A stretch of 64,000 nt of DNA from Escherichia coli (GTDB lineage: Bacteria; Pseudomonadota; Gammaproteobacteria; Enterobacterales; Enterobacteriaceae): NCBI RefSeq assembly GCF_003334765.1, contig NZ_QOWT01000013.1; one strand, written 5' to 3'. The position numbers and the translations under genes are program-made. The notes under the pieces are model-generated. The model saw only the letters and a program-made list of their open reading frames with translations. It was not told where the DNA came from and did not search any database. Position 1 is the stretch's first letter; each line of letters starts with the position of its first letter. Positions 8,101 to 64,000 of the stretch are shown piece after piece.

Positions 8101-9653
8101 AGCGGCTGAACCTGCTCTGCCAGGTGACGCTGATCGACCCCTTCGCGCAATAGTTCGCGAGCGACATCCCACGCCTCGTTACGCGCCAGTGGGCCGTTGA
8201 TTGCCACCACCAGCTGATAAGCCTGCTCAAACTGGCTGTGCGCGGTTTGCGCCATGCTCATTTTCTGCTCAAGAGAGAGCATTTTTTCAGTCGCTTCCAG
8301 CTCTTTCGCCTGGAAGGTTTCCAGCCATTCGGCGGCGCAGTCGGCGGTTAAGTCCGGCAGATGGCACAGTTCTTTGGCACGATTAAGCGCAGCAATCGCC
8401 TGGTTATACTGGATCGCGCGCGTTTGCTGGACGTCCAGCGCCTGCTGGTAGTCAGCAAGCTGGCTTTTCAGCTCGTCCACTTCCAGTTCGGCAGCTTCCG
8501 CACGAGCCTCATTCTCTTCCTGGCGTTCGATGGCTTCTGCCACCACTTCATTTTGCTCTTCCAGACGGATCTGCAGCTCATCGAGATCCGCTTCGTAGCG
8601 TTCGATCTTCTCCTGCTGACGCAGTGCGGTTTGCACCAGGTTCAGGTGATCACTGGCCGCCTGATAATCCGCTTCCAGATCGCCTTCGGCACCGTTGTGC
8701 TCTGCCAGCTCACGCGCCATATCGACGTGTTTGTACTGCTCAGCCGCCAGTTGCTGACGCGAAGTATGTAGCTCGCGACGAAACTCCAGGGCTTTGTCGA
8801 GATGGACACGGCGCTCGTTGGCGTGACGCATGTAGTCCGCCGCCACGTAGTTGGTGGCTTCGCTGATCAGATGCTTAAACAGGTCGCGGTCCGACTGGGT
8901 GACACGAATCGCTTCCAGCGTCATACGGTTTTCACGCAGCGCCGCTTCCATGTCCTGGAACGCTTTACGCACGCCGCTGTTTTCTGGCAACAGGTAGTCG
9001 CGCAGAGAACGGGTAATGGCACTGGAGATCCCGCCATACAGCGAAGCTTCGATCAGACGATAGAATTTGCTACGGTCAGATGCGGAGCGCAGACGACGCG
9101 CGATGATGCCCAGATCGAACATCAGCGAGTGGTAATCAGTAATGGAGTTGAACTGTTTAAACTGCACGCCTTCCATCGCCTCGAGCTTGTCTTTCAGCTC
9201 GTTAAGCGGCAGCACGCGCGCCTGGCGTTCGTTCAGGGTTTCGGTCACCAGCTGTGTCGGCTGCACCGACATCGGCAGTCCCTGAATGGCAAACGGCTTG
9301 ATATCCACTTTACGATCGCGTCCGGCAACCTGTTGCAGACGCACACCGACCACCACGCGCTGGTGGCGCGAGTTAATGGTGTCGAGCATCGAATAACAGA
9401 CACCCGCTTTCAGCTTACCGTGCAGACCTTTATCGCGCGAACCGCTGGTGGCCCCGGCTTCCGTAGTGTTACGGAAATGCAGCAGGGTCAGGTCGGGGAT
9501 CAGCGCCGTAACGAACGCCGCCATGGTGGTGGATTTACCCGCCCCGTTACCGCCAGAAAGCGTCGTGACCAGCTCGTCAAGGTCAAAAGTTCGGGCAAAA
9601 AAGCCGTTCCAGTTAATCAGCGTCAGTGAGCGAAATTTACCGCGTTCAATCAT
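5193..9653 (-). CDS. mukB: chromosome partition protein MukB (SMC-like condensin)
   Basis: 1486-aa ORF, Walker A GNGAGKST near N-terminus, long coiled coils; overlaps mukE stop by 1 nt. Confidence 0.97.
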
Positions 9654-10357
9654 TATTCTTCCTCTCCGCTATCTGGCTGATTCTCTTCGGTTTCATCGTT
9701 GAGTTGCAGATGATTTTCAATCGGCATTGCTTCGCCATCACGAATCAGGCGACGCTGTGCTTCACGGGGATCGTCGCCAGCACGCACATCGGCTCCGAAG
9801 CGGAACACCGATTCGGTAATGCGAAACTTGCTGCTGTCGTGGCCCATAAACCACACCATGCCTAAACGACGCAGACGGTTGAGCGAAGAACGTACTTTCT
9901 CCTGCAACTTCTGACGGTCAACGTCTGAACCGGTTGAACGGTTGTTCACCAGTTTCAGCAGTTTTGCTTCATCGGCCAGGGTGAGCAGTTCGTCGTACAG
10001 TTCCTGCTGGGTGAAAATCCCCTCATTCGCCAGCCGTTCCGGGCTGAGATAGAGATAACAGAGGATTTTCCCGACCATCATATCCAGTTCCGACAAGACG
10101 GAACGAGGGATCAGCGTGGTGGAACGTGGGCGTAAATAGAAGAACCCTTCTGGTGCGCGAATAAGCTCAACGTTATAACGCGCGTAAAACTCTTCCAGAT
10201 ATTCCTGAAAATCCATCAGGAATGCATGATTATCCAGTTCGTCGAGGCCAATATGGCGTCCTGAACGTAAGGCGCTGTCCAGCGCCGGAAATAACGGATT
10301 CGCCAGCGCCTGCGCCAGCTTAACCGGCATCACTTGTTCAATATTTGTCGATGACAT
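9653..10357 (-). CDS. mukE: chromosome partition protein MukE
   Basis: ORF 9653..10384; start chosen at [14 protein letters not shown] (234 aa); acidic C-terminus; overlaps mukF 3' end. Confidence 0.9.
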
Positions 10358-48765: not shown

Positions 48766-51700
48766 TTAGTCAAACGGCGGTGGGGCCAGCACTTCACGAT
48801 TACCGTTGTGCCCCTGTTCGCTGACAATCCCCTGCGCTTCCATCTGTTCGATAATACGCGCTGCACGGTTATAACCAATGCGGAACTGACGCTGTACGCC
48901 AGAAATTGACGCTTTGCGTTTTTCAGTGACAAACTGCACCGCCTGATCGAACAACGGATCCAGTTCTTCAGCGCCATCGAAACCACCCGCACCACCTTCG
49001 CTTTCGCTGTCGGAGGTGATGCCATCAACATACTGTGGGCGACCACGCGCTTTCCAGTCCTGCACCACGGCATGAACTTCCTGATCGCGAACAAAAGCAC
49101 CATGGACACGTACCGGCAACGTGGAGTTCGGCCCAGAGTAGAGCATATCCCCCATACCCAGCAGTGATTCCGCGCCAGCCTGATCAAGAATGGTACGTGA
49201 GTCAATCTTACTGGATACGGTAAAGGCGATACGGGTCGGAATATTCGCTTTAATCAGACCAGTAATAACATCAACCGATGGACGCTGAGTTGCCAGTACG
49301 AGGTGGATACCCGCGGCACGGGCTTTTTGCGCCAGACGTGCTATCAGCTCTTCCACTTTTTTACCTACCGTCATCATCAGGTCGGCAAATTCGTCAACCA
49401 ACACCACAATGTATGGTTCTTTTTTCAGCACCGGATGCTGGGCATCCATACTGTCACCCGGCTTCCAGTACGGGTCTGGAATCGGACGCATCATGCGATC
49501 GGCTTCAGCAATTTTTTCGTTATAACCCGCCAGATTACGCACACCCAGCGCAGACATCAGTTTATACCGACGCTCCATCTCGTTAACACACCAGCGCAGC
49601 GCGTTGGCGGCATCTTTCATATCAGTAACGACTTCCGTTAACAGATGCGGAATGCCTTCATAAACCGAAAGCTCCAGCATTTTCGGGTCGATCATGATGA
49701 AACGCACATCTTCTGGCTGTGCTTTATAAAGCATGCTCAGGATCATCGCGTTCACACCGACAGATTTACCGGAACCGGTAGTCCCCGCAACCAACAAGTG
49801 CGGCATTTTCGCCAGATCGGCAACCACCGGCTCACCGGCGATATCTTTACCCAGCACCACGGTTAATGGCGACGGATTATCGCGGAATTTGGCGTTATCC
49901 AAAACTTCGCGCAGATAAACGGTTTGTCGTTTTTTATTCGGTAACTCCAGACCTACATAGGGTTTGCCAGGAATAACTTCAACGACACGCACCGCCACCG
50001 TCGAAAGTGAACGGGCAAGGTCCCGTGACAAGTTAGAAATGCGCGCCGCTTTTACGCCCGGTGCCAGGTTCAATTCAAAGCGAGTGATAACCGGCCCCGG
50101 AGAGTAATTGACGACATCGGCTTTAATACGGAAATCAGCCAGACGCGCTTCCACCAGGCGAGCCATTTGTTCAAGCGCAAAGGTATCTACCGGCTCCACT
50201 TCGCTCGGCGGCGGTGTCAGCAAATCCAGAGAAGGCAGCGGCGTCGTCGGTTTATGCAACGGACGGCTGTCGCCATTACGCATCAACAGCGGATGAAGCA
50301 GGGTATCCTGCGGTTGTGGCGCAACTGGCTGTTGTGGCTGCTGATACTGCTGCTGCGGCGCAACCGGTTGTTGCGGCTGCTGATATTGCTGCTGTGGCGC
50401 AACCGGTTGTTGCGGCTGCTGATATTGTGGCTGCGGCGCAACCGGCTGTTGTGGCTGCTGATACTGCGGCTGCGGCGGAACTGGTTGTTGCGGCTGCTGA
50501 TATTGCTGCTGCGGTGCAACCGGTTGTTGCGGCTGCTGTACAGGTTCAACAATTGGCGTAAACAACGGTTCGTGTGGACCATCATCCAGCAACGCTTTCA
50601 TTGGCGAAAATTCAAAATCATCCAGCGAGAACGGATTCGCCCCAGCCGGTTGTTCGCCGGAATAACGTTGTTGTTGAGTTTGCGCAAACTGACGAGCCAG
50701 TTCAGCCTCTGCCGCAGCATCTGCATCTTCTGCGTTTACGGGCACATCATGTTGATACTGTTCGCCATAGCGTTGCTGCTGTGTCTGGGCGAACTGACGT
50801 GCCAGTTCATCCTGCTGCATCGCATCGATTTCATCATCGTTGTACTGATCGCCAGAATCGTACTGATTGCGCTGGGCTTCACGGGCTTTTTCTTCCGCCG
50901 CACGCTGTGAGGGCAGCTTAATACCGTAAGACGCCAGTTCACGACGAGTTGGCACGCGGATACGTTTCGGTCGTGGCAACTGCGGACCAATCCCCTCTTT
51001 GACCTGAGGACGCGGTCCACCGCTATTTGCCAGACTGAAGACTGGCGCGGCAACGGTTGCGGCAGCCCCCGTCGCCAGTGTCGCTTTTTTCACGCCAGAT
51101 GCCAGCGGGGAAACAGCGGCAGCGGCTTCTACTGGAGGTACTGCTGCAACAGAAGGTGCTTTCAGCGAAGATTTGATCGGTTCTGGTTCTTTAACCGGTT
51201 CTGGAATCGGTTGATACCAGGCCGCAAGTTGTTCACGTTCACGGGCTCGCTTCTCTTCAACTTCTTCAAAGTAGTAAAGCGGCGGACGCGCGGGTTTTGT
51301 CTCTTCTACAACGGGTTCAGGCTCCACAACAGGCTGCTGTTCAACGGGTTGCGGCTGTTGGTACAACGGCTCCTGAGCGGCTGGCTGCTGATAAGTTTGC
51401 TCAGTCTGGTATGTAGACTGTGGAGCAAAAGTGGATTGCTGCTCTTCGGCTTGCCAGGCGTTACCTGCCACCGGTTGTTCTGGCGCAGGGGCATAATACG
51501 GCTGTTGCGCAGGTTGTTCAGCTGCAGGTGCATAATACGGCTGCTGCGGCTGTACTGGTTGTTGCAGCGGCTCATTATATTGCACTGCAGGCTGCGCATA
51601 TTGTGACTGCTGTGGGTAACCTTCCGGTGCAGGAGCAATAACCGGCTCTCCCGTTTGTGGACCCGGTACAGGCTGCCAGGCTACTGTAGGTTGCGCAGGT

Positions 51701-52755
51701 GGAACATCAACAGAGGCAACAGGCGGCGTCTGAGTCACAGGTTCAACCGGCGCAGCCCAGCTTTGTGTCGCCGTGGTAGCAGCAGCTGCTACAGCGACAG
51801 GTTCGGTAATTGGCGCACCGTTTAATAATGGATCGTATTCGTCATATTCTGGCTGCGTTGCACGATTGCCCGAAAATAGGACGTCGTCCGGGTCGGCAGC
51901 CACACCGCGTGCAGTGTAGGTAATCTCTTCGTCATCATCCATCCGCTTACCGGAGAACAACGCAGCGTCTGTTTGCCGCCCCATCGGATTAATGAATTTT
52001 TCCGCCAACCGTTTACGACGCGCTAGCGCGCCGCGAAGAATACGGGCACGGCGTGATTCATGCTGTTTGCCGTGATTTTCATCTTCATACTCTTCGTCGT
52101 CTTCATACTCATCTTCATCGACCCAGGTATCATCGCGACGGGTACGATTACTGGCGAAGGTGAGAATGTTTAAAATCCAGCCGCCGAGTTTTTCAGCAAT
52201 GGTCACCCATGACCAACCGGTGAACAACGTCAGGCCCGCTGCCCAAACGCAGAGCAGCGCAATAGTTCCCCCGCTACTGTGTAGCAGTGGTTGTAGCGTA
52301 GTGCTTAGTAAGCTGCCAATGACGCCACCGGAGGCAAAATACCAGATATCGTCAGCGTTGATTGCCGCCAGACCACAGGAGGTAAGGATGAGCGCCAAAA
52401 CGCCAATGATGCGTAGCGAAACGGCAAAATAATCAATGTATTCGTCGCTGGACTGATGACGCCAGGCAAACCAACAACCGCCGACAATAATGACGGGAAT
52501 GGTGTAAGCCATCACGCCAAAAATAAAGAACAGCGTATCTGCCAACCACGCACCGGGCATCCCACCTAAATTATGGATAGGTTCATGCCAGGCCGTTTGC
52601 GACCAGCTGGGGTCCGAAGGGTTAAAGCTTAGTAAGGCAGCCATCAACCAGACGGCAAACAGGACAATAAGGATCAGCAACGCCTCCAGAAGGCGGCGGC
52701 CGCTACTTAACTTTGTCAATGTGACTTCTTTGTCTTCAGTGTATTCCTGGCTCAA
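48766..52755 (-). CDS. ftsK: DNA translocase FtsK
   Basis: 1329-aa ORF: N-terminal membrane domain, Pro/Gln-rich linker, C-terminal motor domain with Walker A GTTGSGKS. Confidence 0.97.
50283..50560. repeat. 39-bp tandem repeats encoding the [13 protein letters not shown] repeats of the FtsK linker
   Basis: caaccgg motif recurs at 50361, 50400, 50439, 50478 (variant) and 50517, i.e. period 39 nt; about six 13-aa units in the protein. Confidence 0.8.
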
Positions 52756-52889
52756 GAAAGGCTCTCCAGGTTACAGGCTTTTCCTGCCCGATGCTAAAAC
52801 GGACAACAGTACCAGGTTACCCCAGTACTGTTGCTGTATGGATTAACAGGAGTGTAATCAAAATACGCCGATTTTGCACCTGTTCCGTG

Positions 52890-53384
52890 TTAGCGCGTCT
52901 TAATAACCAGACGATTACTCTGCTTGACTTCTTCCATAACAACGTATGTCCGTGTGTCATTGACGCCAGGCAGACGCAGCAGGGTTTCCCCCAGCAACTT
53001 ACGGTAGGCTGACATATCCGGCACGCGTGTTTTCAACAGGTAGTCGAAATCACCGGATACTAAATGACACTCCTGAATTTCTTCAAGTTTTTGTACAGCG
53101 GTATTGAATTGTTCAAACACATCCGGTGCGCCACGATTCAGAGTAATCTCAACGAATACCAGAAGTGATGCATCCAGATAATGGGGGTTAAGCAGCGCCG
53201 TATAGCCCTGAATAAACCCTTGTCTTTCCAGCCGACGCACACGCTCAAGGCACGGCGTTGGGGAAAGTCCCACACGTTTAGAAAGCTCGACGTTAGAAAT
53301 ACGCCCATCCTTTTGCAACTCATTAAGAATGTTACGATCGATACGGTCGAGATCTTTGCCAGGGCGCTTCTTGCTATCTACCAT
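52890..53384 (-). CDS. lrp: leucine-responsive regulatory protein
   Basis: ORF 52890..53438; start at MVDSKKRPGKDLDRIDRNIL (164 aa). Confidence 0.97.
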   Translation of the reverse strand: MVDSKKRPGKDLDRIDRNILNELQKDGRISNVELSKRVGLSPTPCLERVRRLERQGFIQGYTALLNPHYLDASLLVFVEITLNRGAPDVFEQFNTAVQKLEEIQECHLVSGDFDYLLKTRVPDMSAYRKLLGETLLRLPGVNDTRTYVVMEEVKQSNRLVIKTR

Positions 53385-53811
53385 TATTATTGTCTCTCTG
53401 TATTCCTTCCCTACTCCTGTCTGACCCTGAAACATCACTGTTCAGAGTCGCTACCCGTCACGATAGACCGAAATCATGAAGATTCACGGCGCGCAATGCC
53501 TGGGTCTACGGTGAGAAGACCGTTGCCTTGTGGCAGCTATCGACATCACGAATGGCGTCTGTCCACGCCATACGTAGATTTCACTAGCACGGTAAACATG
53601 GTATTTACATGCATGGTTATGCGCATATAAGAATACTGTTTTTTTTCTTCCTCGAATGTTTTCGCAAAACACCAGGGGATTGTCAAAGCAAAACATCGAT
53701 TTTTAGTACAACATGCCAGATATTCATTAACAGGGGCGTTTATTCATCATTTAATCGGCTTATAAAGCGGGAAATTTAAGTAGCAGAGGTGATAATGACG
53801 GGAGAATTTGA

Positions 53812-54894
<1,083 letters not shown>

Positions 54895-54922
54895 TTTTAC
54901 AAATCAGTAACAAAAGTAAAGA

Positions 54923-54960
54923 AGGCGACACCATGCGACTATGGGTCGCCTTTATTTTTT
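54923..54960 (+). terminator. Rho-independent terminator after trxB
   Basis: Hairpin ggcgaca...tgggtcgcc followed by tttatttttt. Confidence 0.7.
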
Positions 54961-55016
54961 CCCCGTTGTAACATTGCTCTGCAAATAATTCTGATAACTC
55001 ACCTGCTAAGCGTGCA

Positions 55017-56783
55017 ATGAATAAATCTCGTCAAAAAGAGTTAACCCGCTGGTTAAAACAGCAAAGCGTCATCTCCCAACGTTGGCTGAATATTTCTCGT
55101 CTGCTGGGCTTTGTGAGCGGCATATTGATCATTGCCCAGGCCTGGTTCATGGCGCGAATTCTGCAACATATGATTATGGAGAATATTCCCCGTGAAGCCC
55201 TGCTGCTTCCCTTTACGTTACTGGTTCTGACCTTTGTACTGCGCGCATGGGTGGTCTGGTTACGCGAACGGGTGGGTTATCACGCCGGGCAGCATATCCG
55301 CTTTGCCATCCGCCGTCAGGTTCTCGACCGTCTGCAACAAGCAGGGCCAGCGTGGATTCAGGGTAAACCTGCGGGGAGCTGGGCGACGCTGGTACTCGAG
55401 CAAATTGACGATATGCATGATTACTATGCACGCTATCTGCCGCAAATGGCGCTGGCAGTGTCGGTGCCGTTGCTGATTGTGGTGGCAATCTTCCCCTCTA
55501 ACTGGGCTGCGGCGCTCATTCTGCTGGGCACTGCACCGTTAATTCCGTTGTTTATGGCGCTGGTTGGAATGGGGGCTGCCGATGCTAACCGACGTAACTT
55601 TCTCGCTCTTGCTCGCTTAAGTGGGCATTTCCTCGATCGCCTGCGCGGCATGGAAACATTGCGTATTTTTGGTCGTGGTGAAGCTGAAATTGAAAGTATT
55701 CGTTCTGCTTCGGAAGATTTCCGCCAACGGACAATGGAAGTGCTACGGCTGGCGTTTTTATCCTCCGGCATTCTCGAATTTTTTACCTCGCTGTCAATTG
55801 CTCTGGTGGCGGTCTACTTTGGTTTTTCCTATCTCGGCGAGCTGGATTTTGGTCACTACGATACCGGTGTGACGCTGGCTGCGGGTTTTCTGGCCCTGAT
55901 CCTTGCGCCAGAGTTTTTCCAGCCATTACGCGATCTCGGTACGTTTTATCATGCTAAAGCCCAGGCTGTTGGCGCAGCTGACAGTCTGAAAACGTTTATG
56001 GAAACCCCGCTCGCCCATCCGCAACGTGGTGAGGCGGAATTAGCATCGACCGATCCGGTGACCATTGAGGCCGAGGAGCTGTTTATCACGTCGCCGGAAG
56101 GTAAAACGCTGGCCGGACCGCTGAACTTTACTTTGCCAGCAGGCCAACGTGCGGTGTTGGTTGGTCGCAGCGGTTCAGGTAAAAGCTCACTGCTGAACGC
56201 GCTTTCTGGTTTTCTCTCATATCAGGGATCGCTACGAATCAACGGGATAGAATTACGCGATTTATCACCAGAATCATGGCGTAAACATCTCTCCTGGGTT
56301 GGGCAAAACCCACAATTACCGGCAGCAACATTGCGGGATAACGTACTACTGGCGCGACCTGATGCCAGCGAACAAGAATTACAAGCAGCGCTGGATAACG
56401 CCTGGGTCAGCGAGTTTCTACCGCTCCTCCCACAAGGCGTTGATACGCCTGTTGGCGACCAGGCTGCCCGCCTTTCCGTGGGGCAGGCGCAGCGCGTGGC
56501 GGTGGCCCGTGCGTTACTAAATCCCTGTTCGCTATTACTGTTGGATGAACCCGCTGCCAGCCTTGATGCTCACAGTGAACAGCGCGTAATGGAGGCGCTG
56601 AATGCCGCCTCTCTGCGCCAGACAACGTTAATGGTCACCCACCAGTTAGAAGATCTTGCTGACTGGGATGTCATTTGGGTTATGCAGGATGGCCGGATTA
56701 TTGAGCAAGGACGTTACGCGGAATTAAGTGTGGCTGGTGGCCCATTCGCCACATTACTGGCCCATCGTCAGGAGGAGATTTAA
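55017..56783 (+). CDS. cydD: cysteine/glutathione ABC exporter subunit CydD
   Basis: 588-aa ORF, TM domain plus ABC ATPase (GRSGSGKSS). Confidence 0.95.
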   Translation: MNKSRQKELTRWLKQQSVISQRWLNISRLLGFVSGILIIAQAWFMARILQHMIMENIPREALLLPFTLLVLTFVLRAWVVWLRERVGYHAGQHIRFAIRRQVLDRLQQAGPAWIQGKPAGSWATLVLEQIDDMHDYYARYLPQMALAVSVPLLIVVAIFPSNWAAALILLGTAPLIPLFMALVGMGAADANRRNFLALARLSGHFLDRLRGMETLRIFGRGEAEIESIRSASEDFRQRTMEVLRLAFLSSGILEFFTSLSIALVAVYFGFSYLGELDFGHYDTGVTLAAGFLALILAPEFFQPLRDLGTFYHAKAQAVGAADSLKTFMETPLAHPQRGEAELASTDPVTIEAEELFITSPEGKTLAGPLNFTLPAGQRAVLVGRSGSGKSSLLNALSGFLSYQGSLRINGIELRDLSPESWRKHLSWVGQNPQLPAATLRDNVLLARPDASEQELQAALDNAWVSEFLPLLPQGVDTPVGDQAARLSVGQAQRVAVARALLNPCSLLLLDEPAASLDAHSEQRVMEALNAASLRQTTLMVTHQLEDLADWDVIWVMQDGRIIEQGRYAELSVAGGPFATLLAHRQEEI

Positions 56784-58505
56784 ATGCACGCTTTGCTACC
56801 CTATCTGGCACTGTATAAACGTCATAAATGGATGTTAAGTCTTGGTATTGTGCTGGCAATTGTGACGCTGCTCGCCAGTATCGGTCTGTTGACACTTTCC
56901 GGCTGGTTCCTCTCGGCCTCAGCGGTTGCGGGGGTTGCCGGACTGTACAGCTTCAACTATATGCTACCCGCTGCGGGCGTGCGTGGCGCAGCAATCACCC
57001 GTACTGCCGGGCGCTATTTTGAACGTCTGGTAAGTCACGACGCGACTTTCCGCGTGTTGCAGCATCTGCGCATTTACACCTTCAGCAAATTGCTGCCCCT
57101 CTCCCCTGCCGGACTGGCGCGCTATCGTCAGGGCGAATTGCTCAATCGCGTGGTGGCGGATGTTGATACGCTCGATCATCTTTACCTGCGCGTTATCTCG
57201 CCGCTGGTGGGCGCTTTTGTGGTGATTATGGTGGTGACAATCGGGTTAAGTTTCCTTGATTTCACCCTCGCCTTTACGCTGGGCGGCATTATGTTACTGA
57301 CGCTTTTCCTGATGCCACCGCTGTTTTATCGTGCGGGAAAAAGCACCGGGCAAAATCTGACTCATCTTCGCGGACAGTATCGCCAACAACTGACGGCCTG
57401 GCTGCAAGGGCAAGCTGAGCTGACCATTTTTGGTGCCAGCGATCGTTATCGCACGCAACTAGAGAATACAGAAATTCAATGGCTGGAAGCGCAACGCCGT
57501 CAATCTGAACTGACCGCATTGTCGCAAGCGATAATGCTGCTCATTGGCGCGTTAGCGGTGATCCTGATGCTGTGGATGGCGTCTGGCGGCGTTGGCGGCA
57601 ATGCTCAACCCGGCGCGTTAATTGCCCTGTTTGTCTTCTGCGCGTTAGCCGCGTTTGAAGCACTGGCACCAGTAACGGGTGCATTTCAGCATCTGGGGCA
57701 AGTCATTGCCTCTGCCGTACGTATCTCTGACTTAACGGATCAAAAACCGGAGGTCACCTTTCCTGATACCCAAACTCGTGTTGCCGATCGCGTTTCGCTG
57801 ACGTTACGGGATGTTCAGTTCACTTATCCGGAGCAATCTCAACAGGCACTTAAAGGGATTTCTCTTCAGGTAAACGCCGGGGAACATATAGCGATTCTCG
57901 GGCGAACCGGATGCGGCAAATCAACACTGTTACAACTGCTGACCCGCGCATGGGACCCGCAACAGGGCGAGATTTTGCTTAACGATAGCCCCATAGCCAG
58001 CCTGAATGAAGCGGCTCTACGACAGACCATCAGCGTTGTTCCTCAGCGAGTGCATCTGTTTAGCGCCACGCTGCGTGATAATCTTTTACTCGCCTCGCCT
58101 GGCAGTAGTGATGAGGCTCTGTCGGAGATCTTGCGTCGCGTTGGCCTGGAAAAGCTGCTCGAGGATGCAGGTCTCAACAGTTGGTTAGGTGAAGGCGGAC
58201 GCCAGCTCTCCGGTGGTGAACTGCGCCGTCTGGCTATCGCCCGTGCGCTGTTACATGATGCGCCACTGGTGTTGCTGGATGAACCTACCGAAGGCTTAGA
58301 TGCCACAACCGAAAGCCAGATCCTTGAATTGCTTGCAGAAATGATGCGTGAGAAAACGGTGTTAATGGTCACCCATCGACTTCGCGGACTCTCTCGTTTC
58401 CAACAAATAATAGTGATGGACAACGGGCAAATTATTGAGCAAGGTACTCACGCAGAACTGCTTGCCAGACAGGGGCGTTATTACCAGTTCAAGCAGGGTT
58501 TGTAA
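56784..58505 (+). CDS. cydC: cysteine/glutathione ABC exporter subunit CydC
   Basis: 573-aa ORF immediately abutting cydD; ABC ATPase (GRTGCGKST). Confidence 0.95.
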   Translation: MHALLPYLALYKRHKWMLSLGIVLAIVTLLASIGLLTLSGWFLSASAVAGVAGLYSFNYMLPAAGVRGAAITRTAGRYFERLVSHDATFRVLQHLRIYTFSKLLPLSPAGLARYRQGELLNRVVADVDTLDHLYLRVISPLVGAFVVIMVVTIGLSFLDFTLAFTLGGIMLLTLFLMPPLFYRAGKSTGQNLTHLRGQYRQQLTAWLQGQAELTIFGASDRYRTQLENTEIQWLEAQRRQSELTALSQAIMLLIGALAVILMLWMASGGVGGNAQPGALIALFVFCALAAFEALAPVTGAFQHLGQVIASAVRISDLTDQKPEVTFPDTQTRVADRVSLTLRDVQFTYPEQSQQALKGISLQVNAGEHIAILGRTGCGKSTLLQLLTRAWDPQQGEILLNDSPIASLNEAALRQTISVVPQRVHLFSATLRDNLLLASPGSSDEALSEILRRVGLEKLLEDAGLNSWLGEGGRQLSGGELRRLAIARALLHDAPLVLLDEPTEGLDATTESQILELLAEMMREKTVLMVTHRLRGLSRFQQIIVMDNGQIIEQGTHAELLARQGRYYQFKQGL

Positions 58506-58546
58506 GCTATTATTGAACGATCCGACTTGCGTGGAGTTTTGCGGTC

Positions 58547-59251
58547 ATGCGCCTGGTTCAGCTTTCTCGCCATTCAATAGCCTTCCCTTCCCCGGAAGGC
58601 GCATTACGTGAGCCTAACGGCCTGCTGGCACTTGGGGGCGATCTTAGCCCTGCGCGCCTGTTAATGGCTTACCAGCGTGGTATTTTTCCGTGGTTTTCTC
58701 CAGGCGACCCCATCCTCTGGTGGTCGCCCGATCCCCGCGCGGTGCTATGGCCAGAATCACTGCATATCAGCCGTAGTATGAAGCGATTTCATAAACGCTC
58801 GCCCTATCGTGTCACGATGAATTACGCTTTTGGTCAGGTCATTGAAGGCTGTGCCAGCGATCGCGAAGAAGGAACCTGGATCACGCGTGGCGTGGTCGAA
58901 GCCTACCATCGCCTTCACGAACTCGGCCATGCCCACTCCATTGAAGTCTGGCGTGAAGATGAGCTTGTCGGCGGTATGTACGGCGTGGCCCAGGGAACGC
59001 TATTTTGTGGCGAGTCCATGTTCAGCCGGATGGAAAATGCGTCTAAAACGGCGCTTCTGGTATTCTGTGAGGAATTTATCGGTCATGGCGGTAAGCTTAT
59101 CGACTGCCAGGTCCTTAACGATCACACAGCATCGCTTGGTGCCTGCGAAATTCCCCGCCGGGATTACCTTAATTATCTCAATCAAATGCGCCTCGGACGA
59201 TTGCCGAATAATTTCTGGGTACCACGATGCTTGTTTTCACCACAAGAATGA
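58547..59251 (+). CDS. aat: leucyl/phenylalanyl-tRNA--protein transferase
   Basis: 234-aa [20 protein letters not shown]. Confidence 0.95.
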
Positions 59252-59532
59252 ATGTTTTCGGCACATTTCTCCCCAGAGTGTTATAATTGCGGTCGCAGAG
59301 TTGGTTACGCTCATTACCCCGCTGCCGATAAGGAATTTTTCGCGTCAGGTAACGCCCATCGTTTATCTCACCGCTCCCTTATACGTTGCGCTTTTGGTGC
59401 GGCTTAGCCGTGTGTTTTCGGAGTAATGTGCCGAACCTGTTTGTTGCGATTTAGCGCGCAAATCTTTACTTATTTACAGAACTTCGGCATTATCTTGCCG
59501 GTTCAAATTACGGTAGTGATACCCCAGAGGAT

Positions 59533-59754
<222 letters not shown>

Positions 59755-59793
59755 TTGTTTTACCGCCTGATGGGCGAAGAGAAAGAACGAGTA

Positions 59794-59824
59794 AAAGGTC
59801 GGTTTAACCGGCCTTTTTATTTTG
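59794..59824 (+). terminator. Rho-independent terminator after infA
   Basis: Hairpin aaaggtcggtt-taa-accggccttt followed by tttattttg. Confidence 0.75.
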
Positions 59825-60007
59825 TGATATGTATGAAGTACTTTGGAAGTATAAGTCCGTAACTTGTCTCGATGTAGATATACTGCACAACTTGTTTACA
59901 GTATGAGCAAACAATAATTATCATTAAAATTCTTCTTGACCGTTTTACTCCAACTCCCTATAGTAGCGCCCCGTTGCCACCCATGAGGTTTGGTAGCAAA
60001 ACAATTT

Positions 60008-60095
60008 GGTGAGGTGTCCGAGTGGCTGAAGGAGCACGCCTGGAAAGTGTGTATACGGCAACGTATCGGGGGTTCGAATCCCCCCCTCACCGCCA
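60008..60095 (+). tRNA. serW: tRNA-Ser (anticodon GGA)
   Basis: 88-nt cloverleaf by hand: acceptor GGTGAGG/CCTCACC, anticodon loop CUGGAAA (GGA), long variable arm, T-loop GGTTCGAATCC, encoded 3' CCA. Confidence 0.93.
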
Positions 60096-60101
60096 GATTA
60101 T

Positions 60102-60136
60102 AAGCGTATATTATTGTTTGACATGCGCTTTTTTAT
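60102..60136 (+). terminator. putative terminator after tRNA-Ser
   Basis: Short stem aagcg...cgctt followed by ttttttatt; weak stem. Confidence 0.4.
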
Positions 60137-60245
60137 TCTCCCTTCCAGACAGTATGCCACCGGGTATGCCATCTGAAACCGGTTTATATAAGCCGCGATC
60201 ACATCTTATCGGACTATTTCCGATCTTTGAGCATACCGGGCAAAG

Positions 60246-61091
60246 CTATACTGCCAGCATGCCAGGATAGTGTCTGGCAATAATATCATTAAGCCTGTCA
60301 ACCAGTTCTGGTTTTCTGAACGTGATATGCGCGGAGCCCTTCTTAAAGTATCTGATGCTGAACATCTCATCTTCATAGCACGCTTTACCCTGAACAGACC
60401 GGATATGGTCATCCAGATGAATGATGATATTTTCCCGGTTGTCGGGGACTGGTTTGCCACTGAACAGATGCAGCATTCTTTCCAGGTCGGCAAGTCGGTC
60501 GGTCTGTTGTCCGCTGTTCAGATGAATCCCCCACCGGTCCCACCTCACCAGATTGTTGACGATAATTTTACTGCCAAATTTACAGGGTGAGTTGGTTTTG
60601 TAATTCCAGCTCAGCACTCTGAAGACGTTGATCACTCCTCGCTCAAACACGTCATCCTTATTCTGGTGCAGTTGCTCAAATGTGCTCCAAATGTTCGCTT
60701 CACTGATTTCCGGAAAGTTATCGTACTCCAGTGAGCGGTACCATGTATCACGGGCCTGCGCATCCATTAATGACAGCATCCCGGAACGTTGCATCAGGTC
60801 ACGCCAGATTTCGCGATCGAGATTGCGGGTGATGGCTTTCATTGCGGTTTCCGGTTTCTCCATGAGCCAGCAGCCGCAGCGAAAATCCTGTTTCATGGCC
60901 CAGTCCCGGGCGGTTTTACCGCCAATGCTTTCCGTCAGTACCGAGATTTCAGCCAGTTGCCGGATAAGTGTGTCGATTTGCAGCAGCGCACTCTTTCGTA
61001 CAGCCAGAATGTGGCGGATACTGGTTGAGCAGATAACGTCCGTATGTCCGTTGACCAGTTCCGGGCGGGAGATTGTGATATCTGACATCAT
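60246..61091 (-). CDS. hypothetical 281-aa island protein of unknown function (not a K-12 gene at this locus)
   Basis: Clean 281-aa ORF with AAGGA Shine-Dalgarno 8-9 nt upstream of ATGATG start; soluble, no TM or catalytic motif I can assign; may correspond to an uncharacterised family often annotated at the end of cbtA-type island modules, which I cannot verify. Confidence 0.6.
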   Translation of the reverse strand: MMSDITISRPELVNGHTDVICSTSIRHILAVRKSALLQIDTLIRQLAEISVLTESIGGKTARDWAMKQDFRCGCWLMEKPETAMKAITRNLDREIWRDLMQRSGMLSLMDAQARDTWYRSLEYDNFPEISEANIWSTFEQLHQNKDDVFERGVINVFRVLSWNYKTNSPCKFGSKIIVNNLVRWDRWGIHLNSGQQTDRLADLERMLHLFSGKPVPDNRENIIIHLDDHIRSVQGKACYEDEMFSIRYFKKGSAHITFRKPELVDRLNDIIARHYPGMLAV

Positions 61092-61112
61092 CGTTTTTCC
61101 TTTTGGTTTATA

Positions 61113-61143
61113 AACGAAAACGCCAGCCGTATTCAGGCTGGCG
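61113..61143 (-). terminator. Rho-independent terminator between the small-ORF operon and the 281-aa gene
   Basis: Minus-strand hairpin cgccagcc-tgaatac-ggctggcg followed by ttttcgttt. Confidence 0.65.
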
Positions 61144-61172
61144 TCAGTGGAATGAAGTCTGGTGAGTAAGAC

Positions 61173-61370
61173 TCACCTGTTCTGTTGCAGAAGCTGCTGT
61201 TGGCGCAGGGTACGGATATCTTCCCTGGCCTGTTCAATGCAGGGCAGCAGTGCTGCTGAATCCGTTTTATCCTCATCGGTGTCGAAGATAATCCCTGATT
61301 CGCAGTCAATATTGTCCTGCATCCACGCAATCAGAATATCCAGCGCCGTTTCTGTGGTTAATGATTTCAT
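61173..61370 (-). CDS. hypothetical small acidic protein (65 aa)
   Basis: Internal start MKSLTTETALDILIAWMQDN... of six-frame ORF 61173..61601; highly acidic (DNIDCESGIIFDTDEDKTD); start 16 nt after stop of the preceding 83-aa ORF. Confidence 0.45.
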   Translation of the reverse strand: MKSLTTETALDILIAWMQDNIDCESGIIFDTDEDKTDSAALLPCIEQAREDIRTLRQQQLLQQNR

Positions 61371-61386
61371 GTTGTGAATTTCCGGG

Positions 61387-61638
61387 TTACCAGTCGAAAG
61401 TGGGGAACCCCGGCAGACATTCTGCGCCGGCGTCCAGATGAATGAGACTGACGCCATAACGCCGGGTGAGAGTGACGACCAGACGACGGAACGTTCTTGA
61501 CAGGCCCAGGCGTTTAAGCCGCAGAACCGGGTACGACCATGCATCGGTACGTAACAGATACCAGTCGCGGGCTTTTTCCCGTACGGTGGAGGATAGCTCA
61601 TGCAGTGTATACACGGTGGTGGTGATAATTCTGCTCAT
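61387..61638 (-). CDS. hypothetical small basic protein (83 aa)
   Basis: ORF starts 18 nt downstream of the YeeT-like gene; Arg-rich; overlaps an alternative-frame 142-aa ORF so the coding frame is uncertain. Confidence 0.4.
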   Translation of the reverse strand: MSRIITTTVYTLHELSSTVREKARDWYLLRTDAWSYPVLRLKRLGLSRTFRRLVVTLTRRYGVSLIHLDAGAECLPGFPTFDW

Positions 61639-61656
61639 CTGAATGCCCTTACTGAC

Positions 61657-61878
61657 TCAGTTCAGGGTGACGTTCATCAGCCGGACATACGGGCCAAAAC
61701 TGTCCTTACGGCGTTCAGCAAACACGGCCAGCACACCGGGAATATCCTGCACTTCACGACCGGTATACGTCTCAGCACTGCCGTGCCAGCGGTACTTACC
61801 GGTGCAGAACGGAAATAGACGGGGTGCAGGATGCTGTTGGTGAATACGCATGGCTTCACCACGGGTGATAATTTTCAT
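61657..61878 (-). CDS. YeeT/DUF987-family small protein
   Basis: 73-aa ORF MKIITRGEAMRIHQQHP... matching my recollection of the YeeT-type protein that precedes cbeA/cbtA modules in CP4-like islands. Confidence 0.7.
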   Translation of the reverse strand: MKIITRGEAMRIHQQHPAPRLFPFCTGKYRWHGSAETYTGREVQDIPGVLAVFAERRKDSFGPYVRLMNVTLN

Positions 61879-61940
61879 AATGGGATACCTCTGAAGACAG
61901 AAGATAAAAGTGAAAACAGGTGTGATGTGGTTGTGACGGG

Positions 61941-62417
61941 TTAAAGCAGACCATGTTCGGCAAAGGAGAAAACCTGGTTGCCACCGACTATCAGATGGTC
62001 CGGCACCCGGATATCCACCAGGCCCAGTGCCTGTACCAGACGTTCGGTGATAAGCCGGTCTGCCTTACTGGGTGTGACTTCACCGGACGGGTGATTGTGT
62101 GCCAGTACCACGGCAGCGGCATTGTGGTACAGGGCGCGTTTAATCACTTCCCGGGGATGGACTTCCGTGCGGTTGATGGTGCCGGTGAAGAGGGTTTCAC
62201 CGGCAATCAGCTGATTCTGGTTGTTCAGATACAGCACCCGGAATTCTTCACGCTCCAGTCCCGCCATGTTCAGAATCAGCCATTCCCGTGCTGCACGGGT
62301 GGAGGTGAAGGCCACGCCGGGTTCATGAAGATGGCGGTCCAGGGTTTTCAGGGCCCGTTGAATGAGGCTGCGCTCGCCGGGCGTCATCTCTCCGGGCAGA
62401 AAGGAAAGTTGTTGCAT
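61941..62417 (-). CDS. RadC-like JAB-domain protein (YeeS/YfjY/YkfG family)
   Basis: JAMM motif HNHPSG; start chosen at MQQLSFLPGE preceded by GGAGG SD (alternative ATG at 62432 overlaps antirestriction stop). Confidence 0.85.
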   Translation of the reverse strand: MQQLSFLPGEMTPGERSLIQRALKTLDRHLHEPGVAFTSTRAAREWLILNMAGLEREEFRVLYLNNQNQLIAGETLFTGTINRTEVHPREVIKRALYHNAAAVVLAHNHPSGEVTPSKADRLITERLVQALGLVDIRVPDHLIVGGNQVFSFAEHGLL

Positions 62418-62432
62418 TGTCCCTGCCTCCAT

Positions 62433-62906
62433 TCAGTCGATGATGCGCATAATGGCGCTGCATTCCGGATGCTGCAGGGCGTAATCCCGCAGCCGGTAAT
62501 AATGAACCGTCATGGCATAATTCTCTGTACGACAGGCGTGATGGCTGTACGCCATCAGACAGGCGGCAATGCCGGCGGCTTCCGGGCTCATTTCAGCGCG
62601 GTTACCGTTCATGACGTTAAACAGCACCCATGTTTCGTCATCATCGTCATCCGGTTCGGGTGCCATAAATGCGCCACCGTTGTTCAGGGTGTACAGATTC
62701 CAGATACCACCGCAGTAGTCTTCGCACAGACGGTCCATCCAGCCGAAGACACGGGGCTCCAGGGTCACCCACTGTGGAATGAGGCCAAAGTGCTGCGGCC
62801 AGAAGCTGATGCGCTGTTCATCAGGGACGAGGGTGGCAACCAGTTGTTGCAGGTCAGTCTCCGGTGCACAGGCCGAAGAGGTGGTGTTCTGAGACAATGT
62901 TTTCAT
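62433..62906 (-). CDS. antirestriction protein (KlcA/ArdB-like, YfjX/YeeR family)
   Basis: Internal start MKTLSQNTTSS... (158 aa) within six-frame ORF 62433..63287; the 5' extension overlaps the upstream DUF932-like gene and is taken as non-coding. Confidence 0.8.
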   Translation of the reverse strand: MKTLSQNTTSSACAPETDLQQLVATLVPDEQRISFWPQHFGLIPQWVTLEPRVFGWMDRLCEDYCGGIWNLYTLNNGGAFMAPEPDDDDDETWVLFNVMNGNRAEMSPEAAGIAACLMAYSHHACRTENYAMTVHYYRLRDYALQHPECSAIMRIID

Positions 62907-63247
62907 GTATGAAATCCTTGTAATGTGAATAAATGAGAGGGAGTAAAGGTCGGGAGCTGGCAACATCACGTTCATCACTGACCGTGATGACCCGGTAATA
63001 TCAGGGATGAATGATATTCGGCTGAAATTCCGGACAGCCGTACGCGTAACCGTTCCGGTCACAGACGGATGGCCAGATGCCATTGCCTGTATACTCAGTC
63101 TGCACAGACTGATTTCTCCGGGACGGTAAAACAGACGGGTACACCAGGCGCACAGGTCATCATCAGAAATGGAACGACACCCCGGCAGCGCCTCCGGGGC
63201 GTCGGGTGATTCTGGTGCCTGAATCACGCCTTCAGGGACATGCTGCA

Positions 63248-64000
63248 TCAGCGCAGGCTCTCCAGCAGCATTTCTGCCATTACCCACAATGCGCGGTTGA
63301 GCTTAATATCGGTGTCGATGTTGTGAATGGCACGGGTGTGGATACGTTTTCCTTTTGCACTGCGGCCGGAAATCCCGCCTTTCAGCATATTCTCCTGGAT
63401 GGTCTGATAAGTACTCCACAGGTCCTTACCGTAATCCTCCCGGCGTCGTGGCGTCAGAATGTCGGCGGTGGTGACGGGCCGATGTTCGTCACCATAACGG
63501 TAAGTCAGTGCCGCCTGTGCCAGCTCCTGGCGTTCCGGTGGCGGCAGGACCAGCGACTGCATGGCATCACGCTTCTCCTCTATCCGGTCAAACACGCCCA
63601 CCACCTCGTAAGCCCCTTCGATAACTTTCTCCACTACATTTCCCCGGTGTGGAACACGCACTTCCCCCAGAGACTGGCCACAGACGCACCCGTTCTGGCA
63701 GACGAACCTGAAGTAACCCGGCAGCATCTGGTAGCTGGAGGTACCGTCATGAGAGTTGAGCAGAATAATTTCAGGGACATGTTCTCCGTTTATCTCTCCG
63801 GCCCGCCGCAGACGCAGCATGTGTTTTGTGTATCCCCGGCGGCCCGGGTCGCGCACGCGGGTCTGGCAGGCGAAGAATGGCTGAAAACCTTCCTGCTGCA
63901 GGCTTTCCAGTACGGTGATGGTGGGAATGTACGCATATCGTTTACTGCGGGAAGTATGCCGGTCTTCACCGAAAATACTGGGAACATAGTGCATCAGTTC
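63248..64000 (-). CDS. DUF932-family island protein (YafZ/YfjQ-like), 5' end probably beyond window
   Basis: ORF 63248..63994 (248 aa from first visible Met MHYVPSIFGEDRH); K-12 homologues as I recall them are about 273 aa with about 24 residues N-terminal to this motif, so likely truncated by the window edge. Confidence 0.6.
   Translation of the reverse strand, partial: ELMHYVPSIFGEDRHTSRSKRYAYIPTITVLESLQQEGFQPFFACQTRVRDPGRRGYTKHMLRLRRAGEINGEHVPEIILLNSHDGTSSYQMLPGYFRFVCQNGCVCGQSLGEVRVPHRGNVVEKVIEGAYEVVGVFDRIEEKRDAMQSLVLPPPERQELAQAALTYRYGDEHRPVTTADILTPRRREDYGKDLWSTYQTIQENMLKGGISGRSAKGKRIHTRAIHNIDTDIKLNRALWVMAEMLLESLR

What the first reader, a model, noticed from the sequence alone, without database searches (positions are those of the whole stretch)
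60096..64000. Accessory island replaces the K-12 serW-clpA junction
Everything up to the tRNA is collinear with K-12, but downstream of serW the K-12 neighbour clpA is absent and CP4-like island genes follow, all on the minus strand and reading toward the tRNA. The island extends past the window edge so its size, integrase and far boundary cannot be seen.
Basis: partly seen in the sequence, partly recalled or inferred. Interest (0 to 1): 0.6.

Follow-up and report, generated by a model that had tools for sequence, protein, structure and literature searches.

The report
Known-type genomic island at serW
The last 3.9 kb of the window is the tRNA-side end of a well-known kind of mobile genomic island, the SRL-PAI / O-island 43/48 family, inserted at the 3' end of the E. 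coli serW tRNA gene; it is real but ordinary.

Summary
Window 1979-60103 is collinear with K-12 MG1655 (mepK/gloC to serW) at 99.94-99.97% identity. Homology stops at the last base of serW (60095).

What follows is the conserved CP4-like arm, all on the minus strand: DUF4942, DUF957, DUF987, a RadC/YeeS homologue, an antirestriction protein and DUF932. This arm lies next to serW or its identical twin serX in islands of the SRL-PAI / OI-43 / OI-48 (SpLE1) family.

The family's published 14-bp att core, CCCCCTCACCGCCA, is the last 14 bp of serW (60082-60095). In complete or near-identical relatives the second copy lies 43-81 kb away, beside a P4-family integrase, the displaced native serW terminator and clpA. 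So clpA is pushed away, not lost.

About 5% of complete E. coli genomes (269 of 5426) carry this arm at serW, and 82% have the empty K-12 junction. The closest relatives suggest the unseen cargo is the RptR-type I R-M-DarTG-M48 (RRDM) defence cluster rather than the tellurite genes.

One local peculiarity: a clean 1761-bp deletion removed the CbtA/CbeA-type toxin-antitoxin pair and left an 83-aa in-frame fusion ORF. That variant is widespread in draft assemblies.

The parts
60008..60095 (+). serW, tRNA-Ser(GGA), intact. This is the chromosomal attachment-site gene.
   Evidence: ARAGORN and Rfam tRNA at 53.8 bits. Identical to K-12 serW.
60082..60095 (+). 14-bp att core CCCCCTCACCGCCA, the last 14 bp of serW. 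It is the tRNA-proximal copy of the island's flanking direct repeat.
   Evidence: K-12 homology ends here. The same 14-mer recurs at the integrase/clpA junction in relatives L006, L038, L026, L040 and L043-L046. Published as the direct repeat of OI-43/48 and SRL-PAI (PMC3064760). There is only one copy in the window.
60102..60137 (+). Island-borne hairpin followed by a U-run, directly after serW. It is a probable substitute terminator for the displaced native one.
   Evidence: RNA fold gives -9.3 kcal/mol, z = -2.4 in the window. The same position in TUM1886 gives -19 kcal/mol, z = -5.8. The native K-12 terminator gives -21.3. The simple terminator scan did not call it. Function is inferred.
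60246..61088 (-). DUF4942-domain protein (280 aa), the outermost island gene.
   Evidence: ORF list. The identical gene in L007 carries PF13708. RefSeq annotation of homologues.
61173..61370 (-). DUF957 protein (65 aa).
   Evidence: ORF. Homologues are annotated DUF957 in RefSeq. A weak match to the K-12 sequence just downstream of yeeW.
61387..61638 (-). 83-aa in-frame fusion ORF. The first 26 aa come from the N-terminus of an 'antitoxin of TA stability system' gene and the last 57 aa from the C-terminus of DUF5983. It is the scar of a 1761-bp deletion (junction 61559/61560, 2-bp overlap) that removed the cbtA-family toxin and the yeeU/cbeA-family antitoxin.
   Evidence: BLAST against L003 and L001 shows two blocks with 1761 bp and 1169 bp missing respectively. 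Translations of the parental genes. PF19419 is recorded on the identical protein.
61657..61878 (-). DUF987 protein (73 aa), a YeeT/YkfH homologue.
   Evidence: PF06174. 94.5% identical to K-12 YeeT.
61941..62417 (-). RadC-like JAB-domain protein (158 aa), a YeeS/YkfG homologue.
   Evidence: NCBIfam TIGR00608 at 149 bits, above its cutoff. PF04002. 100% identical to YeeS over 150 aa.
62433..62906 (-). Antirestriction protein (157 aa), a YafX/YfjX (KlcA-type) homologue.
   Evidence: PF03230. 67% identical to K-12 YafX.
63248..64000 (-). DUF932 protein (YafZ/YfjQ homologue), cut by the window end. About 22 N-terminal codens lie beyond 64000.
   Evidence: PF06067 on the 272-aa L007 homologue. 73% identical to K-12 YafZ.
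63620..63752 (.). Patch of 11 substitutions inside the DUF932 gene. These are the only differences from the otherwise identical L007. Probably a short gene-conversion tract from a paralogous island copy.
   Evidence: Mismatch positions. The patch matches the L001 allele with 2 mismatches, against 11 for the L007-type alleles.

Best explanation
Window 60096-64000 is the tRNA-proximal end of an integrative genomic island of the SRL-PAI / OI-43 / OI-48 (SpLE1) family, sitting between serW and clpA.

Proposed mechanism: a P4-family tyrosine integrase, encoded at the far end of the element, recombined a circular form of the island with the 14-bp core CCCCCTCACCGCCA at the 3' end of serW. The island supplies an identical 3' end, so the tRNA stays intact. 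It also supplies a hairpin and U-run directly after the tRNA. The native serW terminator and clpA are displaced to the other end, behind a second copy of the 14-mer.

The part in the window is the conserved CP4-44/CP4-6-like arm that these islands share whatever their cargo. Here it has lost its CbtA/CbeA-type toxin-antitoxin pair through a 1761-bp deletion.

From the nearest relatives, the unseen remainder is probably about 40-80 kb. It most likely carries the RptR-HsdM-HsdS-DarT-DarG-HsdR-M48 (RRDM) phage-defence cluster, a replication/regulation module (AlpA-like HTH, DUF3987, TOTE primase) and the integrase.

Shown directly: the breakpoint, the core sequence, the gene content and the deletion. 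Inferred from relatives and literature: the integrase, the second repeat, the island size, the cargo, and any present-day mobility.
For: - Exact breakpoint at the serW 3' end, on a backbone 99.94-99.97% identical to K-12.
- The same arm lies next to serW in 269 of 5426 complete genomes, including O157:H7, O111:H8 and O145. 4436 of 5426 have the empty junction.
- Complete relatives show serW - arm - cargo - integrase - 14-bp repeat - native terminator - clpA. These are O157:H7 SS TX 313-1 and TUM1886, whose island is 43.5 kb. LSN03-016011/A has the same layout at serX, about 45 kb.
- L007 (GCA_029321555.1) is identical to window 51387-64000 except for an 11-bp patch of substitutions. It extends the island 7.6 kb beyond the window end.
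- L028 and L029 match all 9.9 kb of island DNA that they share with L007 (L007 1-9943, up to the DUF987 gene) at 99.92% and continue into RRDM.
- L028's scaffold also holds the integrase and the 14-bp repeat next to clpA, on a flank 99.99% identical to K-12. That implies an island of about 81 kb, assuming the scaffold is collinear.
- Integrases in the three relatives compared (the LSN03/L040 allele, O157:H7 SS TX 313-1 and TUM1886) are 96-97% identical to one another; the LSN03/L040 allele carries Arm-DNA-bind_3, Phage_int_M and Phage_integrase domains.
- Literature: the 14-bp repeat TGGCGGTGAGGGGG, the P4-family integrase and measured excision of OI-43/48 (PMC3064760). Integrase-dependent excision of SRL-PAI from serX, with serW as an alternative site (PMC7545054). 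RRDM described in EPEC (PMC12255303).
Against: - The integrase, the second repeat and the cargo lie outside the window and were not seen for this strain.
- No public sequence found is 100% identical to the window across the island part. L007 differs at 11 clustered positions.
- The arm is shared by islands with different cargo: ter in L001 and L008, fec in L017-L025, RRDM in L028 and L038. The 3.3 kb just beyond the GTPase gene is also present in O157 islands at 98.7%. Cargo assignment is therefore probabilistic.
- The arm shows decay. The toxin-antitoxin pair is deleted, and in L007 most of the Ag43/YeeR region is missing. The element may no longer be mobile.
- The hairpin after serW is weak in this strain (-9.3 kcal/mol) and was missed by the terminator scan.
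Confidence: 0.85

Rival explanations
1. Same island family and mechanism, but the unseen cargo is the tellurite-resistance / urease / Iha set of OI-43 (TAI, SpLE1-like) rather than the RRDM defence cluster.
For: The best complete-genome match across the whole serW junction (SW071611, 97.9%) carries ter, microcin H47 and iha. The TA-deleted arm also occurs next to TerF-like genes in L008 and L009 at serX. OI-43 at serW is the classical case.
Against: L007, the near-identical relative at serW, diverges from the ter-carrying L008/L009 beyond the GTPase gene. It instead matches LSN03-016011/A at 99.7% and L028/L029 at 99.92%, all of which continue into RRDM.
Confidence: 0.2
2. The island is a decayed, immobile remnant. 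The arm is retained at serW, but the integrase or the distal repeat has been lost, so it behaves as fixed chromosomal DNA like the K-12 CP4 cryptic elements.
For: Internal deletions are present in the arm: the toxin-antitoxin pair here, and the Ag43/YeeR region in L007. Large IS-mediated internal deletions are frequent in OI-43/48. In SW071611 the serW island ends in a truncated integrase fused to the yersiniabactin (ybt) island (HPI).
Against: The K-12-like relative GCA_000158415.2 keeps a full-length 405-aa integrase and the repeat next to clpA. The same TA-deleted arm is found at both serW and serX and in different chromosomal backgrounds. That points to spread of the arm after the deletion arose, by island mobility, horizontal transfer or recombination between arms.
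Confidence: 0.25
3. There is no insertion. The segment is native to this locus in K-12 as well, or the junction is an assembly chimera at a repeated tRNA or island sequence.
For: serW and serX are identical, and CP4-like arms are multi-copy (median 3 places per genome). That is the kind of repeat that can mislead assemblers.
Against: K-12 has clpA 343 bp from serW and none of this DNA there. The identical junction occurs in 269 complete genomes and in independent draft assemblies such as L007, L010 and L015.
Confidence: 0.01

Closest known systems
O-island 43 / O-island 48 of E. coli O157:H7 EDL933 (SpLE1 in Sakai; the tellurite resistance and adherence island, TAI)
   Same: Same insertion site (serW for OI-43) and the same 14-bp direct repeat. 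The integrase is P4-family and lies at the clpA side. The same CP4-like arm abuts the tRNA, and O157:H7 genomes match the window junction at about 95.6%.
   Different: The cargo is probably not ter/ure/iha. The arm here lacks the CbtA/CbeA pair. The O157 copies carry an ISSfl8 insertion and a duplicated DUF4942 annotation in the arm.
[quoted passage not shown]
   Same: Identical 14-bp flanking repeats and a near-identical integrase, according to PMC3064760. Excision is integrase-dependent, and serW is reported as an alternative site. Fec-carrying islands with the same arm turned up.
   Different: SRL-PAI carries the fec genes and a multi-resistance locus. No SRL-PAI sequence was compared directly here.
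RRDM defence island (RptR, type I R-M, DarTG2, M48) of EPEC E2348/69
   Same: The gene string rptR-hsdM-hsdS-darT-darG-hsdR-M48 is the cargo of the nearest relatives L028, L029, TUM1886 and LSN03-016011/A.
   Different: It is not in the window. Its presence in this strain is inferred. The paper's text contains no mention of tRNA, serW/serX or an integrase.
K-12 cryptic elements CP4-6 (thrW) and CP4-44
   Same: Homologous gene set and order. In CP4-6 the module likewise lies directly after the tRNA, on the opposite strand and reading toward it.
   Different: They sit at a different tRNA (thrW), or at none in the case of CP4-44. The K-12 copies keep their toxin-antitoxin pairs. The window copy sits at serW, which is empty in K-12.

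Membership tests
SRL-PAI / OI-43 / OI-48 family of serW/serX-integrating islands | Insertion exactly at the 3' end of serW or serX, with the 14-bp core CCCCCTCACCGCCA at the junction and the tRNA left intact | tested here: met
   K-12 homology ends at 60095. The core is at 60082-60095 and the tRNA is intact. The core sequence is as published.
SRL-PAI / OI-43 / OI-48 family of serW/serX-integrating islands | A second, direct copy of the 14-bp core at the distal end, followed by the native sequence downstream of the tRNA | not testable with these tools
   The distal end lies outside the window, which holds only one copy. The feature is present in relatives L006, L038, L026, L040 and L043-L046.
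SRL-PAI / OI-43 / OI-48 family of serW/serX-integrating islands | P4-family tyrosine integrase at the end distal to the intact tRNA | not testable with these tools
   Not in the window. Present next to clpA in O157:H7 SS TX 313-1, TUM1886 and GCA_000158415.2. The compared integrases are 96-97% identical to one another, and Arm-DNA-bind_3, Phage_int_M and Phage_integrase domains are recorded for the LSN03/L040 allele.
SRL-PAI / OI-43 / OI-48 family of serW/serX-integrating islands | Conserved arm (GTPase ... DUF932, antirestriction, RadC, DUF987, toxin-antitoxin, DUF5983, DUF957, DUF4942) abutting the tRNA and reading toward it | tested here: met
   Gene order and 94-98% DNA identity to the arm at serW/serX in complete genomes. 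The toxin-antitoxin genes and most of DUF5983 are deleted.
SRL-PAI / OI-43 / OI-48 family of serW/serX-integrating islands | Integrase-mediated excision that restores an empty serW | not testable with these tools
   This is an experimental property. It has been shown for OI-43/48 and SRL-PAI in the literature.
CP4-type cryptic-prophage module (CP4-6 / CP4-44 / CP4-57) | Homologues of YafZ/YfjQ, YafX/YfjX, YeeS/YkfG and YeeT/YkfH in the conserved order | tested here: met
   tblastn against the K-12 CP4-44 and CP4-6 regions gives 100%, 94.5%, 67% and 73% identity. The order matches CP4-6.
CP4-type cryptic-prophage module (CP4-6 / CP4-44 / CP4-57) | Type IV toxin-antitoxin pair CbtA/CbeA (the YeeV/YeeU family) | tested here: not met
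   Both genes were removed by the 1761-bp deletion. Only an 83-aa fusion ORF remains.
RRDM defence cluster (RptR, type I R-M, DarTG, M48) | The rptR-hsdM-hsdS-darT-darG-hsdR-M48 gene string | not testable with these tools
   It would lie about 10 kb beyond the window end. It is present in the closest relatives.

The most novel reading that the evidence does not exclude
The TA-less variant of the arm, with its 83-aa YagB-like::DUF5983 fusion ORF, may not be a dead scar. It could be a selected derivative that still moves between serW and serX and between lineages. If so, these islands do not need their CbtA/CbeA addiction module for maintenance, or the chimeric protein has gained a function of its own. 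Alternatively, this particular strain's unseen cargo could differ from every relative examined.
Probability: 0.07. Interest if true: 0.3.

Novelty: already known. Interest (0 to 1): 0.12.

Why it matters
As it stands, this only marks the strain as one of roughly 5% of E. coli with an occupied serW. That helps strain typing and predicts accessory content, probably a type I R-M/DarTG phage-defence cluster. It adds nothing to what is known about how tRNA-targeting islands work.

The minor points of interest are three. The toxin-antitoxin pair was lost cleanly, yet the arm variant is still widespread. The same deletion is seen at two identical att sites. The island end carries its own hairpin, which may replace the tRNA's terminator.

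Tried and rejected
1. NCBIfam scan of the island ORFs named only RadC. I used the precomputed Pfam hits on identical proteins in L007 instead.

2. Walking outward from L007 with the 172-aa hypothetical protein returned only other islands, because the protein is shared by ter, fec and RRDM islands. It did not recover the L007 contig.

3. Look-up of the LSN03 DarT allele found only LSN03 itself.

4. SW071611, the best whole-junction match, is a poor model for the far end. Its island runs more than 85 kb into a truncated integrase fused to the yersiniabactin island.

5. Base composition and GC skew show no boundary at serW.

6. An Rfam scan of 59500-64000 at E <= 0.1 found only the tRNA.

7. The long plus-strand ORFs antisense to the island genes (for example 61953-62912, and 60270-60590) were treated as spurious. 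The one tested has no family match, and neither is called in any annotated relative.

8. I considered whether the serW/serX twin genes could mean a rearrangement rather than an insertion. In K-12, serW is on the minus strand, and from my own knowledge of the map serX is too. Recombination between them would therefore delete or duplicate about 170 kb of core genome containing essential genes, rather than give this junction. The far junction with clpA in relatives settles the question.
Full report
**The observation**

The window has a single tRNA gene, tRNA-Ser(GGA), at 60008-60095 on the plus strand (Rfam confirms it). Upstream lie cydD, cydC, aat and infA. I compared the window with K-12 MG1655. 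Window 1979-51978 matches K-12 934001-984000 with 14 mismatches and no gaps. Window 51979-60103 matches K-12 925878-934000 at 99.94%. So the backbone is K-12-like and strictly collinear. Homology ends at the last base of serW; the few further matches up to 60103 are chance matches in A/T-rich sequence. In K-12, clpA ends 343 bp beyond serW. None of that sequence is in the window.

**What follows the tRNA**

All credible genes from 60246 onward are on the minus strand and read toward serW:
- DUF4942, 60246-61088
- DUF957, 61173-61370
- an 83-aa ORF, 61387-61638
- DUF987, 61657-61878
- a RadC/JAB protein, 61941-62417
- an antirestriction protein, 62433-62906
- DUF932, 63248 to beyond 64000

They are homologues of the K-12 CP4-44 and CP4-6 genes. 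RadC is 100% identical to YeeS over 150 aa. DUF987 is 94.5% identical to YeeT. The antirestriction protein is 67% identical to YafX, and DUF932 is 73% identical to YafZ. K-12's own CP4-6 has the same layout: thrW, then the module on the opposite strand reading toward the tRNA. 'CP4-like' is therefore an accurate label. Base composition does not distinguish the island from the core.

**How common the arrangement is and what it belongs to**

In 5426 complete E. coli genomes, 4436 have the uninterrupted K-12 clpA-serW-infA junction. 269 have this arm directly next to serW, including O157:H7, O111:H8, O145 and ST131 strains. The island part alone is multi-copy and found in 4998 genomes, because the arm is shared by many islands. 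Its best match (98.2%) is at serX, the identical twin of serW, in strain LSN03-016011/A.

**The far end in relatives**

In O157:H7 SS TX 313-1 the serW island ends about 76 kb away. There it has a tyrosine integrase, then ...GGTCCCCCTCACCGCCA followed by the exact K-12 serW-downstream terminator, then clpA. TUM1886 shows the same over 43.5 kb at serW. LSN03-016011/A shows it over about 45 kb at serX. The repeat is 14 bp, CCCCCTCACCGCCA, and equals window 60082-60095. This is the published direct repeat of OI-43 and OI-48 (TGGCGGTGAGGGGG on the other strand). That paper states it is identical to the repeat of the Shigella SRL-PAI, and it describes P4-family integrases and measured site-specific excision (PMC3064760; review PMC7545054). 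The structure and mechanism are therefore already described. clpA is displaced, not replaced.

**Extending the window by proxy**

The 83-aa ORF is distinctive. An exact-sequence look-up found it in 295 blocks of public assemblies, at both serW and serX. One contig, L007 (GCA_029321555.1), is identical to window 51387-64000 apart from 11 substitutions clustered at 63620-63752. It extends the island 7.6 kb further: DUF905, two hypothetical genes, a YeeP-like GTPase and a 172-aa protein. Most of the Ag43/YeeR region is missing.

Beyond the GTPase gene, L007 diverges from the ter-carrying serX copies L008 and L009. It matches LSN03-016011/A at 99.7%. It matches L028 and L029 at 99.92% over the 9.9 kb of island DNA they share (L007 1-9943, up to the DUF987 gene). 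Those relatives continue into rptR-hsdM-hsdS-darT-darG-hsdR-M48. This is the RRDM phage-defence cluster characterised in EPEC (PMC12255303).

The scaffold that holds L028 also holds L040. L040 has clpS and clpA on a flank 99.99% identical to K-12, then the 14-bp repeat, then a 405-aa P4-family integrase, DUF3987, AlpA and a TOTE primase. That implies an island of about 81 kb in that K-12-like strain, assuming the scaffold is collinear. I therefore rate RRDM cargo as the likeliest for the window's strain, at roughly two in three. An OI-43-like ter cargo is the main alternative.

**Local peculiarities**

1. *A deleted toxin-antitoxin pair.* Relative to LSN03-016011/A, a clean 1761-bp deletion with a 2-bp overlap at 61559/61560 removed four things. 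These are most of an 'antitoxin of TA stability system' gene, the YeeU/CbeA-family antitoxin, the CbtA-family toxin, and the first two-thirds of DUF5983. What is left is an in-frame 26 + 57 aa fusion. No complete RefSeq E. coli genome has this deletion: the best-ranked matches were all split in two or more pieces there, and a copy with the same deletion would have matched in one piece and ranked first. Yet the variant is common in drafts, occurs at both att sites, sits on different cargo (ter in L008; the RRDM-type flank in L007) and in different backbones (L010 differs from the window by 77 substitutions in the core). The deletion therefore predates spread of the arm by island mobility or by recombination between arms.

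2. *A substitution patch.* The 11-substitution patch in DUF932 resembles another allele, L001, with 2 mismatches. It looks like a short gene-conversion tract.

3. *A hairpin after the tRNA.* The island end carries a hairpin plus U-run directly after serW, at 60102-60137. It folds at -9.3 kcal/mol here and -19 kcal/mol in TUM1886. It sits where the native terminator (-21.3 kcal/mol) would be. A terminator role is my inference, and the simple scan did not call it.

**Verdict**

The finding is real, precisely located and correctly interpreted. It describes a textbook case: a P4-integrase island of the SRL-PAI / OI-43/48 family at a known tRNA hotspot. It is present in about 5% of complete E. coli genomes, and its att core is already published. 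The integrase, the far boundary and the cargo cannot be shown for this strain from the window, and they rest on near-identical relatives. Novelty is 'already known' and interest is low.

Noticed in passing
window 61387-61638 (junction 61559/61560): A clean 1761-bp deletion removed the CbtA-family toxin and the YeeU/CbeA-family antitoxin, leaving an in-frame 83-aa fusion ORF. The exact protein is in 295 collection blocks, at both serW and serX and with different cargo. It is absent from all 5426 complete RefSeq E. coli genomes.
   Followed up: partly
window 63620-63752: Eleven substitutions cluster in 133 bp of the DUF932 gene. They are the only differences from the otherwise identical L007 over 12.6 kb. 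The patch matches a different allele (L001) with 2 mismatches, which suggests a gene-conversion tract from a paralogous island copy.
   Followed up: partly
window 60102-60137: The island end brings a hairpin and U-run directly after serW, where the native terminator used to be. It is strong in TUM1886 (-19 kcal/mol) and weakened by two substitutions here (-9.3 kcal/mol).
   Followed up: partly
L026 about 17798-18160; L038 44477 and 44655; L042 and L044 about 9646-9827: In several strains the chromosomal side of the distal junction holds two or three tandem units of about 180 bp. Each ends in the 14-bp serW/serX 3' end plus a terminator, and they are annotated as RtT sRNA in LSN03-016011/A. Each unit is a potential extra att core.
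   Followed up: no
L001, L004, L005 (SW071611, NZ_CM129855.1 3398337-3484527): The best whole-junction match carries a composite island of more than 85 kb at serW, with ter, microcin H47 and iha. It ends in a truncated integrase directly abutting the yersiniabactin island (HPI), which indicates a rearrangement or island fusion.
   Followed up: no
L006 12079-20096 (O157:H7 SS TX 313-1): A small integrase-bearing element with a capsid gene, a terminase small subunit gene, a primase gene and an Icd-like gene sits between clpS and yljB/cspD, just beyond the serW island. K-12 has nothing there. The same flank in TUM1886 and L044 also shows phage-like genes.
   Followed up: no
window 1979-60103: The backbone is almost identical to K-12 MG1655, with 14 mismatches in 50 kb and no indels. 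The strain is therefore a very close K-12 relative that differs here only by the serW island.
   Followed up: yes
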